A stretch of 64,000 nt of DNA from Escherichia phage Turkey3, in sequence record PQ471515.1. One strand, 5' to 3'. The stretch's first letter is position 1. Every line of letters starts with the position of its first letter. Shown here piece after piece: positions 40,917 to 41,354 of this stretch. Below the pieces are notes generated by a model, which was given only the letters and a program-made list of their open reading frames with translations, was not told where the DNA came from and made no database searches. A program made the translations under genes and the position numbers.

Positions 40917-41354
40917 ATGACACGCATTAACTTAGTACACGTTAAAGAACTTGCTGACCAACATCTGATGGCTGAATATCGTGAACTCCCACGTGTATTT
41001 GGTGCTGTACAAAAACACGTTCAAGCACGTAAGCGTGTACGTGATTTCAAAATTAACAGTACTTACCTGTTAGGTTCAGGTCATGTAACATTCTTCTACA
41101 ACAAGTTACTGTACTTACAGAAGCGTCATATTGATATTGTTAACGAATGTTTGCGTCGTGGTATGAAGATTCAAAACACTGAAGTAAACGACATTAGCGG
41201 CTTCCCTGCTGAGTTTTGTAATGACTACGTACCATCGGAGTCAGAGATTAAAATGTCTCGTGAGCGTTTGATTGAGAAGCTCCAGATGAAGCCTACTTGG
41301 TATAAATTTACTGACGTTGACTTACCTGATTACTATACCGAGATGATTAAATAA
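40917..41354 (+). CDS. denV: pyrimidine dimer DNA glycosylase (T4 endonuclease V homologue)
   Basis: 145 aa; N-terminal [42 protein letters not shown] and C-terminal PTWYK match the T4 DenV sequence as I remember it. Confidence 0.85.

What the first reader, a model, noticed from the sequence alone, without database searches (positions are those of the whole stretch)
40917..41354. denV homologue despite a non-T-even gene repertoire
The 145-aa product matches T4 endonuclease V closely at both ends, yet the same genome encodes a full sigma-70-family factor, which T-even phages do not. The combination suggests a mosaic or a distinct lineage that acquired UV-repair capacity.
Basis: established knowledge. 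Interest (0 to 1): 0.4.

Follow-up and report, generated by a model that had tools for sequence, protein, structure and literature searches.

The report
Known denV gene in jumbo coliphage
The ORF is a genuine, apparently intact homologue of the phage T4 UV-repair enzyme endonuclease V, sitting in a RaK2/121Q-type jumbo coliphage where this gene and its sigma-factor neighbour were already annotated and published, so the finding is correct but ordinary.

Summary
Observation confirmed. Window 40917..41354 (+) encodes a 145-aa protein that aligns without gaps to T4 endonuclease V over residues 1-131 (PDB 2END, E=3.8e-54, about 62-64% identity). All catalytic and DNA-binding residues are conserved. 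The AlphaFold model superposes on the T4 crystal structure (TM 0.88-0.94, 1.3 A).

The window comes from an Asteriusvirus-type (121Q/PBECO4/RaK2-like) jumbo coliphage. The protein is 100% identical to the annotated 'endonuclease V N-glycosylase UV repair enzyme' of Escherichia phage WPEC5. The gene is already described for RaK2 (gp291, 2013) and CBB (CBB_519, 2017), and in a 2021 jumbo-phage survey that also reports the RpoD-like sigma factor.

Added here:
- DenV is the clear identity outlier between T4 and this lineage: 62.5% against 24-34% for capsid, portal, terminase and polymerase. Distant true T4-like phages have DenVs only 35-41% identical. This points to old lateral exchange within the enterobacterial-phage gene pool, direction unresolved.
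- The jumbo-phage DenVs form their own clade, marked by a short C-terminal extension.
- The gene sits directly behind a repeated terminator-hairpin/sigma-70-promoter cassette of the PeSL type and next to a decayed HNH homing-endonuclease gene.

Novelty: already known. Interest is low.

The parts
40917..41354 (+). denV: pyrimidine-dimer DNA glycosylase/AP lyase (T4 endonuclease V orthologue), 145 aa including a 14-aa C-terminal extension typical of the jumbo-phage clade
   Evidence: ORF; Pfam PF03013; PDB 2END E=3.8e-54; PHROG 1183; 100% identical to WPEC5 CDS0128; AlphaFold pLDDT 93.8 and Foldseek TM 0.88-0.94 to 2END/1ENI
40856..40888 (+). Composite terminator-hairpin / sigma-70 promoter cassette (PeSL-like) directly upstream of denV. 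The -35 TTGACT (40859-40864) lies in the 5' arm of a GC hairpin, followed by an 18-nt spacer containing TG and the -10 TATAAT (40883-40888)
   Evidence: Promoter scan 11/12 match with TG; 8 copies in the window against 0.14 expected; hairpin -17.4 kcal/mol, z=-4.1; conserved upstream of denV in WPEC5, WPEC3, 121Q and RaK2
40903..40909 (+). Shine-Dalgarno sequence GAGAGGA, 7 nt before the denV ATG
   Evidence: Read directly from the sequence
40775..40912 (+). 45-aa ORF that is the C-terminal remnant of a free-standing HNH homing-endonuclease gene; intact (138 aa) in phage WPEC3, absent in 121Q
   Evidence: PHROG 2255/35854 HNH endonuclease; WPEC3 annotation; blastn shows 317 bp missing relative to WPEC3
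41370..41585 (+). 71-aa ORF of unknown function lying between denV and the next cassette; found in only four close relatives
   Evidence: ORF; tblastn gives 4 phage records only; no PHROG hit
41579..41611 (+). Next copy of the terminator/promoter cassette, closing the denV + ORF71 module
   Evidence: hairpin -16.7 kcal/mol, z=-4.6; WPEC3 and CMSTMSU homology to the window ends at about 41635
20471..21436 (+).
   Evidence: Pfam Sigma70_r2 and r3; NCBIfam RpoD_Cterm/RpoS alignments below cutoff; PHROG 351; hairpin -18.2 kcal/mol

Best explanation
The ORF is the denV gene of a RaK2/121Q-type jumbo coliphage. It encodes a small all-helical enzyme that should work like T4 endonuclease V (T4-pdg). 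After removal of the initiator Met, the alpha-amino group of Thr2 attacks C1' of the 5' pyrimidine of a cyclobutane pyrimidine dimer, with Glu23 assisting. This cuts the glycosyl bond and then the backbone by beta-elimination, starting base-excision repair of UV-damaged phage DNA.

It is probably transcribed early by host sigma-70 RNA polymerase, from a strong consensus promoter built into a terminator hairpin immediately upstream.

In evolutionary terms the gene belongs to a DenV clade shared by phages of Enterobacterales: T-even, RaK2-like jumbo, a T5-like Erwinia phage and Marfavirus. It reached either the jumbo lineage or the T-even lineage by an old lateral transfer rather than by descent from the common T4-superfamily ancestor.

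Shown here: homology, conserved catalytic residues, predicted fold, promoter/hairpin motifs, the identity outlier and the tree. Inferred: enzymatic activity, early expression, lateral transfer.
For: Homology and active site:
- E=3.8e-54 to T4 endoV, gap-free over residues 1-131.
- T2, R3, Q15, H16, Y21, R22, E23, R26, H56, R117 and Y129 are invariant in all 31 jumbo-clade representatives. K121 is kept in 29 of 31, W128 is W or F, K130 is K or R. A1 (48 sequences) lists T2, R3, E23, R26 and R117 among its invariant columns.
- Model pLDDT 93.8, TM 0.88-0.94 and rmsd 1.3 A to 2END/1ENI.

Selection: nucleotide identity to T4 denV is 69% and 79% at codon positions 1 and 2 but 40% at position 3.

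Expression: TTGACT-18-TATAAT promoter with TG, plus a Shine-Dalgarno site. The CBB paper places its orthologue in the early region, which is rich in RpoD-like promoters.

Lateral exchange:
- T4 vs window DenV is 62.5% identical, against gp23 34%, gp20 28%, gp17 26%, uvsX 26% and gp43 24%.
- DenVs of RB43, Aeromonas Asfd_1 and Vibrio nt-1, all Straboviridae, are only 35-41% identical to T4 or the window DenV and branch outside.
- A Demerecviridae phage (Erwinia KEY) carries a DenV 48-55% identical.

Annotation and literature.
Against: No experiment on this protein or any jumbo-phage DenV was found. The tree is neighbour-joining on 131 columns with moderate support: jumbo clade 152/200, T-even core 177/200, deeper nodes below 60%. 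Both the sister relationship and the direction of transfer are therefore soft. High identity could in part reflect strong constraint on a very small enzyme. Region 1-31 is nearly invariant across all enterobacterial-phage DenVs. Promoter and terminator are consensus matches only (one search states these are not evidence of function). In the Ter-gene jumbo contigs, denV has no such cassette upstream.
Confidence: 0.8

Rival explanations
1. Vertical inheritance. denV was present in the common ancestor of T4-like and RaK2-like phages and is simply conserved much better than other genes.
For: RaK2-like phages are distant members of the T4 superfamily and share many replication, repair and structural genes. 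The enzyme is small, with a nearly invariant N-terminal third.
Against: Bona fide Straboviridae (RB43, Asfd_1, nt-1) have DenVs only 35-41% identical to T4 DenV, although they are far closer to T4 than the jumbo phage is. DenV at 62.5% is roughly twice the identity of the structural and replication genes, which are 24-34%. A T5-like phage and a Marfavirus fall inside the same DenV clade.
Confidence: 0.1
2. Recent capture of denV from a co-infecting T-even phage, i.e. a young mosaic junction.
For: Both phage types infect E. coli. An HNH homing-endonuclease remnant and recombination-prone repeated cassettes flank the gene.
Against: Third-codon-position identity to T4 denV is only 40% and overall nucleotide identity 63%. 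No T-even DenV is more than 66% identical. The jumbo clade is itself deep (down to about 60-66% identity, e.g. CBB) and carries its own C-terminal extension. RaK2 (Klebsiella), 121Q and the window each carry denV directly behind the same upstream cassette.
Confidence: 0.03
3. The protein keeps the fold but has a shifted role, for example mainly AP-lyase or Fapy-adenine glycosylase activity, or a role against host defence or DNA modification rather than UV repair.
For: The jumbo clade has a conserved extra C-terminal helix (residues 138-144, pLDDT about 87-93) that T4 lacks. The gene lies among early host-takeover genes. T4-pdg is known from the literature to act on AP sites and FapyAde as well (my own knowledge, not tested here).
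Against: Every residue implicated in dimer recognition and catalysis in T4 is retained, and the core superposes at 1.3 A.
Confidence: 0.07

Closest known systems
Bacteriophage T4 endonuclease V (DenV, T4-pdg; PDB 2END/1VAS; Pfam PF03013)
   Same: 62-64% identity over residues 1-131 without gaps. Same catalytic Thr2/Glu23 and basic DNA-binding residues. Same all-alpha fold in the model, TM 0.88-0.94. Both genes sit directly behind a promoter combined with a stem-loop.
   Different: 145 aa against 138 aa. The T4 tail YGKAIYA is replaced by [14 protein letters not shown], predicted to form a short helix. The host genome is a jumbo phage of roughly 350-390 kb (close relatives 348-386 kb), not a 169-kb T-even. 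The flanking genes are unrelated: T4 has ipII and vs.8. The promoter/hairpin sequences are not homologous.
Annotated DenV of RaK2-like jumbo phages: WPEC5 CDS0128, 121Q gp217, PBECO4, RaK2 gp291, CBB_519
   Same: Orthologues: 100% (WPEC5), 94-96% (121Q/PBECO4 group), 81% (RaK2) and 66% (CBB) identity. The same upstream cassette is present in WPEC5, WPEC3, 121Q and RaK2.
   Different: Upstream neighbour varies: intact HNH in WPEC3, remnant here and in WPEC5, none in 121Q, a different nuclease in RaK2. The downstream 71-aa ORF occurs in only four phages. 121Q DenV has a different 3' end (171 aa), because homology stops at window 41320.
PeSL (promoter-early stem-loop) cassettes of T4-type phages (Arbiol 2010, PMC2839356; Comeau 2014, PMC4122927)
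   Same: A repeated composite of a near-consensus sigma-70 promoter and a GC stem-loop placed between -35 and -10, with A-rich sequence upstream and SD plus start codon downstream. Copies are confined to an early region full of small ORFs, and some synteny breaks between relatives fall at them.
   Different: Found here in a RaK2-like jumbo phage, not a T4-type phage. The sequence has no match in T4. Recombination or mini-circle formation was not tested. I found no paper describing them in RaK2-like phages; the CBB paper reports only RpoD-like promoters with UP elements.

Membership tests
T4 endonuclease V / pyrimidine-dimer DNA glycosylase (Pfam PF03013) | Sequence match to the family model above the curated threshold | tested here: met
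   PF03013 55.9 bits against a cutoff of 23; PHROG 1183 E=5.6e-59. NCBIfam gave no match for this protein.
T4 endonuclease V / pyrimidine-dimer DNA glycosylase (Pfam PF03013) | N-terminal Met-Thr-Arg, so that Thr2 alpha-amino becomes the nucleophile after Met removal | tested here: met
   The sequence starts MTRINL. T2 and R3 are invariant in all 31 jumbo and 33 T-even-type representatives. Met removal itself is inferred.
T4 endonuclease V / pyrimidine-dimer DNA glycosylase (Pfam PF03013) | Catalytic Glu23 and basic DNA-binding residues Arg22, Arg26, Arg117, Lys121 | tested here: met
   All present in the window protein at the same positions. E23, R22, R26 and R117 are invariant in the jumbo clade; K121 is kept in 29/31.
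T4 endonuclease V / pyrimidine-dimer DNA glycosylase (Pfam PF03013) | C-terminal aromatic/basic segment W128-Y129-K130-Y131 | tested here: met
   The window has WYKF: W128, Y129 and K130 kept, Y131 changed to F. Clade-wide, W/F, Y and K/R.
T4 endonuclease V / pyrimidine-dimer DNA glycosylase (Pfam PF03013) | Single compact all-alpha domain superposable on the T4 crystal structure | tested here: met
   AlphaFold2 model pLDDT 93.8, pTM 0.88. Foldseek against 2END/1ENI gives TM 0.88-0.94, rmsd 1.3 A over 133 columns. This is a prediction, not a solved structure.
T4 endonuclease V / pyrimidine-dimer DNA glycosylase (Pfam PF03013) | CPD-specific glycosylase plus AP-lyase activity; increased UV survival of the phage | not testable with these tools
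   Needs enzyme assays or phage genetics. No such data for jumbo-phage DenV were found in the papers read.
RaK2-like jumbo phages, genus Asteriusvirus (121Q/PBECO4 group): origin of the window | High nucleotide identity and synteny with genomes classified in the genus | tested here: met
   In window 36000-46000, the aligned segments (38-64% of the 10 kb) are 88-99% identical to WPEC5, fEgEco12, CMSTMSU, 121Q, PBECO4-type genomes of 348-386 kb. 121Q and CMSTMSU are classified as Asteriusvirus.
PeSL composite promoter/terminator cassettes | Near-consensus sigma-70 -35/-10 hexamers combined with a stable stem-loop, repeated in intergenic positions | tested here: met
   8 copies against 0.14 expected. 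Consensus alignment. Hairpins -16.7 to -18.2 kcal/mol, z -4.1 to -6.1.
PeSL composite promoter/terminator cassettes | Concentration in hyperplastic (early, ORFan-rich) regions and absence from core modules | tested here: met
   All copies lie at window 21.4-45.8 kb. There are none in WPEC5 93-193 kb (replication/structural) and one in 1-50 kb.
PeSL composite promoter/terminator cassettes | Insertions, deletions or replacements between close relatives bounded by the cassettes | tested here: inconclusive
   WPEC3 and CMSTMSU homology ends at about 41635, just past the cassette at 41579-41611. HNH presence or absence abuts the cassette at 40856. But the 121Q break at 41320 lies inside denV, not at a cassette.
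PeSL composite promoter/terminator cassettes | Demonstrated promoter and terminator activity; recombination giving mini-circles | not testable with these tools
   Requires reporter assays and inverse PCR, as in PMC2839356.
Sigma-70 family (context gene 20471..21436) | Regions 2, 3 and 4 present | tested here: inconclusive
   Regions 2 and 3 pass the Pfam cutoffs. There is no separate region-4 Pfam hit at E<=5. RpoS and RpoD_Cterm models align through residues 296-319, but the whole-protein scores are far below the curated cutoffs. The CBB orthologue is reported to have regions 2-4.

The most novel reading that the evidence does not exclude
denV (with the adjacent small ORF) is a mobile module bounded by PeSL-type terminator/promoter cassettes and escorted by a free-standing HNH homing endonuclease. 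Such cassettes, so far described only in T4-type phages, would also operate in RaK2-like jumbo phages. They would be the vehicle by which accessory genes such as denV and the T4 nrdC.10-like ATPase at 45784..46554 move between unrelated phage families that infect the same hosts.
Probability: 0.25. Interest if true: 0.35.

Novelty: already known. Interest (0 to 1): 0.12.

Why it matters
It matters little as a discovery. DenV in RaK2-like jumbo phages has been annotated since 2013, and both its sporadic distribution and the co-occurring RpoD-like sigma factor were noted in a 2021 survey.

The useful points are confirmatory:
- The enzyme looks fully functional.
- DenV is a clean example of an accessory repair gene whose phylogeny follows host range (phages of Enterobacterales) rather than virus lineage.
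- The PeSL-like cassettes and the decaying homing endonuclease next to it give a testable route for such exchange in jumbo phages.

Tried and rejected
- NCBIfam gave no family for the DenV protein, so it was uninformative.
- My first cassette pattern had one N too many and found nothing. It was corrected.
- Searches failed on input format.
- I tested whether the 71-aa ORF downstream of denV travelled with denV from T-even phages. It occurs only in four close jumbo relatives, and no T4 ORF matches it. Rejected.
- I looked for the cassette sequence in T4 and in the Ter-gene jumbo contig carrying a clade member. None was found, so the cassettes are analogous to T4's promoter/stem-loop, not homologous, and are not universal in the jumbo clade.
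- Recent transfer was rejected on third-position divergence.
- 'Jumbo clade nested inside the T-even clade' (direction T-even to jumbo) had only 31/200 bootstrap support and is not claimed.
- I did not fetch the remaining 190 kb of WPEC5, nor use the representative-library search or the metagenome/genome scans. The question was settled without them.

Full report
**1. The observation**

Window 40917..41354 (+) is an ATG-initiated ORF of 145 codons. A GAGAGGA Shine-Dalgarno sequence lies 7 nt upstream.
- It matches Pfam PF03013 (pyrimidine dimer DNA glycosylase) at 55.9 bits against a cutoff of 23.
- It matches PHROG 1183 at E=5.6e-59.
- It matches the sequences of the T4 endonuclease V crystal structures at E=3.8e-54, residues 1-131 aligned to 1-131 without a gap.

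The resemblance spans the entire enzyme, not only the ends. Only the last 14 residues are new.

**2. Where the window comes from**

tblastn against 50,697 phage records finds a 100% identical protein in Escherichia phage WPEC5 (381 kb). Identity is 91-96% in the 121Q/PBECO4/phAPEC6/slurp01 group and about 81% in Klebsiella phages RaK2 and Muenster. In all of these where the record is annotated, the ORF is called endonuclease V or pyrimidine dimer glycosylase.

Megablast of window 36000-46000 matches the same jumbo genomes at 88-99% identity, with many indels. 121Q and CMSTMSU are classified as Asteriusvirus and RaK2 as Alcyoneusvirus. The window is therefore an early-gene region of an Asteriusvirus-type, RaK2-like jumbo coliphage.

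**3. What is already published**
- The RaK2 genome paper lists gp291 as a homologue of the endonuclease V of T4-like phage VR7. [quoted passage not shown]
- The CBB paper lists 'UV repair endonuclease V (CBB_519)' a few genes from an RNA polymerase sigma factor with regions 2, 3 and 4 (CBB_513). Both lie in the presumed early region, which carries RpoD-like promoters. The paper also reports a separate gp55-like late sigma factor (PMC5259590).
- A comparative study of 224 jumbo phages states that T4 endonuclease V occurs in a subset of subgroup 2.2 phages as a sporadically distributed repair protein. It also states that group 2 phages encode both minimal and RpoD-like sigma factors (PMC7824862).

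**4. The sigma factor**

Window 20471..21436 (+) encodes 321 aa with Pfam Sigma70_r2 and Sigma70_r3. Long alignments to RpoD C-terminal and RpoS models reach residues 296-319, though well below the equivalog cutoffs. No separate region-4 Pfam hit was obtained. T4 itself has only gp55, and no T4 ORF matches this protein. WPEC5 also has a '55 superfamily' protein.

**5. Is the enzyme likely functional?**

The residues known for T4 endonuclease V are all present:
- Thr2, the N-terminal amine nucleophile;
- Arg3, Gln15, His16, Tyr21, Arg22, catalytic Glu23, Arg26, His56, Arg117 and Lys121;
- the Trp128-Tyr129-Lys130 segment.

In 31 non-redundant members of the jumbo-phage clade, T2, R3, Q15, H16, Y21, R22, E23, R26, H56, R117 and Y129 are invariant. 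Alignment A1 of 48 sequences shows the same pattern.

An AlphaFold2 model built on A1 has mean pLDDT 93.8. It superposes on 2END and 1ENI with TM 0.88-0.94 and rmsd 1.3 A. The extra C-terminal residues form a short, confidently predicted helix (138-144).

Codon positions 1, 2 and 3 are 69%, 79% and 40% identical to T4 denV, the pattern expected under long purifying selection.

I therefore commit to the T4-pdg mechanism: a CPD glycosylase with associated AP-lyase, acting through a Thr2 Schiff base. Activity itself is inferred.

**6. Test of 'acquired'**

I loaded the whole T4 genome and 150 kb of WPEC5. I then compared all T4 six-frame ORFs with those of the window plus WPEC5. DenV is the outlier.

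| Gene | Identity to T4 |
|---|---|
| DenV | 62.5% |
| NrdA | 48% |
| NrdB | 39-41% |
| NrdC.10-like ATPase | 37% |
| gp23 | 34% |
| Frd | 32% |
| gp47 | 32% |
| gp46 | 31% |
| gp44 | 29% |
| gp52 | 29% |
| gp21 | 29% |
| Dda | 29% |
| gp20 | 28% |
| RNase H | 27% |
| gp17 | 26% |
| UvsX | 26% |
| gp41 | 25% |
| UvsW | 25% |
| gp43 | 24% |

DenV is not an intrinsically slow gene. DenVs of genuine Straboviridae such as RB43, Aeromonas phage Asfd_1 and Vibrio phage nt-1 are only 35-41% identical to T4's and the window's.

In a neighbour-joining tree of 77 representatives:
- the jumbo DenVs form a clade (152/200 bootstraps), all with a C-terminal extension;
- the T-even core forms another clade (177/200);
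- the two, together with Marfavirus Potts1, T5-like Erwinia phage KEY and others, form an enterobacterial-phage group;
- the distant Straboviridae fall outside, with Ackermannviridae and other phages.

Nesting of the jumbo clade inside the T-even core is poorly supported (31/200), so the direction is open. The transfer is old, given third-position identity of 40%, clade-internal divergence down to about 60-66%, and the same upstream cassette next to denV in Klebsiella and Escherichia jumbo phages. One subclade (P0039) lies on contigs with TerC/TerD/TelA genes and many small ORFs, consistent with another jumbo-phage group.

**7. Local anatomy**

Immediately upstream of denV (40856-40888) is a 33-nt element, GGGTTGACTTCAGTCGGCCCTTTTTGCTATAAT. 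It is a GC hairpin with a T-run whose 5' arm contains a -35 TTGACT, followed after an 18-nt spacer with TG by TATAAT.
- Seven further copies lie on the same strand at 21444, 29922, 33516, 36559, 41579, 42963 and 45723. That is 8 pattern matches against 0.14 expected. The 8 include a weak, non-cassette match at 29299, and the fuzzy-consensus search gives the 8 cassette copies listed here.
- The hairpins are stable, -16.7 to -18.2 kcal/mol, z -4.1 to -6.1.
- The copy after the sigma gene lacks the -10 and would act only as a terminator.
- The element is absent from WPEC5's replication/structural 100 kb and from T4.

This is the architecture described as PeSLs in T4-type phages, where such cassettes are proposed to drive modular shuffling (PMC2839356, PMC4122927). 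T4's own denV is also preceded by a promoter-like GTTTACA...TACTAT overlapping a 9-bp inverted repeat, unrelated in sequence.

What lies around the denV cassette varies among relatives:
- WPEC3 has an intact 138-aa HNH endonuclease gene.
- The window and WPEC5 keep only its last 45 codons (40775..40912; 317 bp missing).
- 121Q has nothing there.
- RaK2 has a different nuclease.
- The 71-aa ORF downstream occurs in only four phages.
- Homology to 121Q ends inside the denV 3' end at 41320, giving 121Q a 171-aa product.

This is suggestive of cassette-mediated and homing-endonuclease-mediated shuffling but does not prove it.

**8. Verdict**

The finding is a correct identification of a known, annotated gene in a known phage group. 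The lateral-exchange inference is supported quantitatively here, with direction unresolved, but it is in line with published statements on the sporadic distribution of DenV. Novelty: already known. Interest about 0.12.

The only mildly new lead is the PeSL-like cassette family in a RaK2-like jumbo phage. I could not find it described for these phages in the papers read.

Noticed in passing
window 21444-21476, 29922-29954, 33516-33548, 36559-36591, 40856-40888, 41579-41611, 42963-42995, 45723-45755 (+): Repeated composite terminator-hairpin / consensus sigma-70 promoter cassette (AAAGGGTTGACTTCGGTCAGCCCTTTTTGCTATAAT), 8 copies against 0.14 expected. It is confined to the early ORFan-rich region and matches the PeSL concept of T4-type phages. 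I did not find it described for RaK2-like phages in the papers read.
   Followed up: partly
window 40775-40912 (+): 45-aa ORF that is the C-terminal stump of a free-standing HNH homing-endonuclease gene. It is intact in phage WPEC3 and absent in 121Q, a snapshot of homing-endonuclease gain and decay next to denV.
   Followed up: yes
window 41654-42952 (+): 432-aa protein made of five tandem copies of roughly 65-70 aa (the repeating DNA unit is about 200 bp; KKTTEQFIKDAKEKRTDIDF.YSKVNY...IIDPE.GEF..TP..FL.GSGHP) plus a C-terminal endonuclease-like domain (PHROG 559/681). Repeat number and ORF structure differ in WPEC5 (annotated as two CDS, 'endonuclease' plus 'DUF4379') and WPEC3 (a 516-aa 'endonuclease'). 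The Pfam hits are low-complexity noise.
   Followed up: partly
window 45784-46554 (+): P-loop/AAA ATPase 37% identical to T4 NrdC.10, a gene of a T4 hyperplastic region. This is the next-best T4 match after DenV and the ribonucleotide reductase subunits NrdA/NrdB, and it also sits directly behind a cassette (45723).
   Followed up: no
window 49098-63351 (mostly - strand): Array of about a dozen paralogous genes of 370-390 aa with RCC1-like repeat domains (Pfam WD40_RLD/RCC1). They are annotated in WPEC5 as 'chromosome condensation regulator, ATS1 superfamily'. This is a large lineage-specific expansion.
   Followed up: partly
L018 (121Q) 2501-3016 compared with window 41320-41354: 121Q-type DenV is annotated as 171 aa because nucleotide homology to the window stops at 41320, inside the 3' end of denV. 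The C-terminal extension of the jumbo-phage DenV is itself a recombination or indel hotspot. Cluster P0001 (134 members) shares the long form.
   Followed up: partly
L021/L022 (ENA metagenome contigs), denV at 8001-8432: A DenV subclade (141-143 aa, W128 changed to F, K130 to R) lies about 4 kb downstream of a TerC-TerD-TerD-TelA tellurite-resistance-like gene cluster on 59-92 kb phage-like contigs, with no cassette upstream.
   Followed up: no
L015 (Erwinia phage KEY, Demerecviridae) 101-556: A T5-like phage carries a DenV 48-55% identical to the window and T4 proteins, inside the enterobacterial-phage DenV clade. This is further evidence that the gene moves between phage families.
   Followed up: partly
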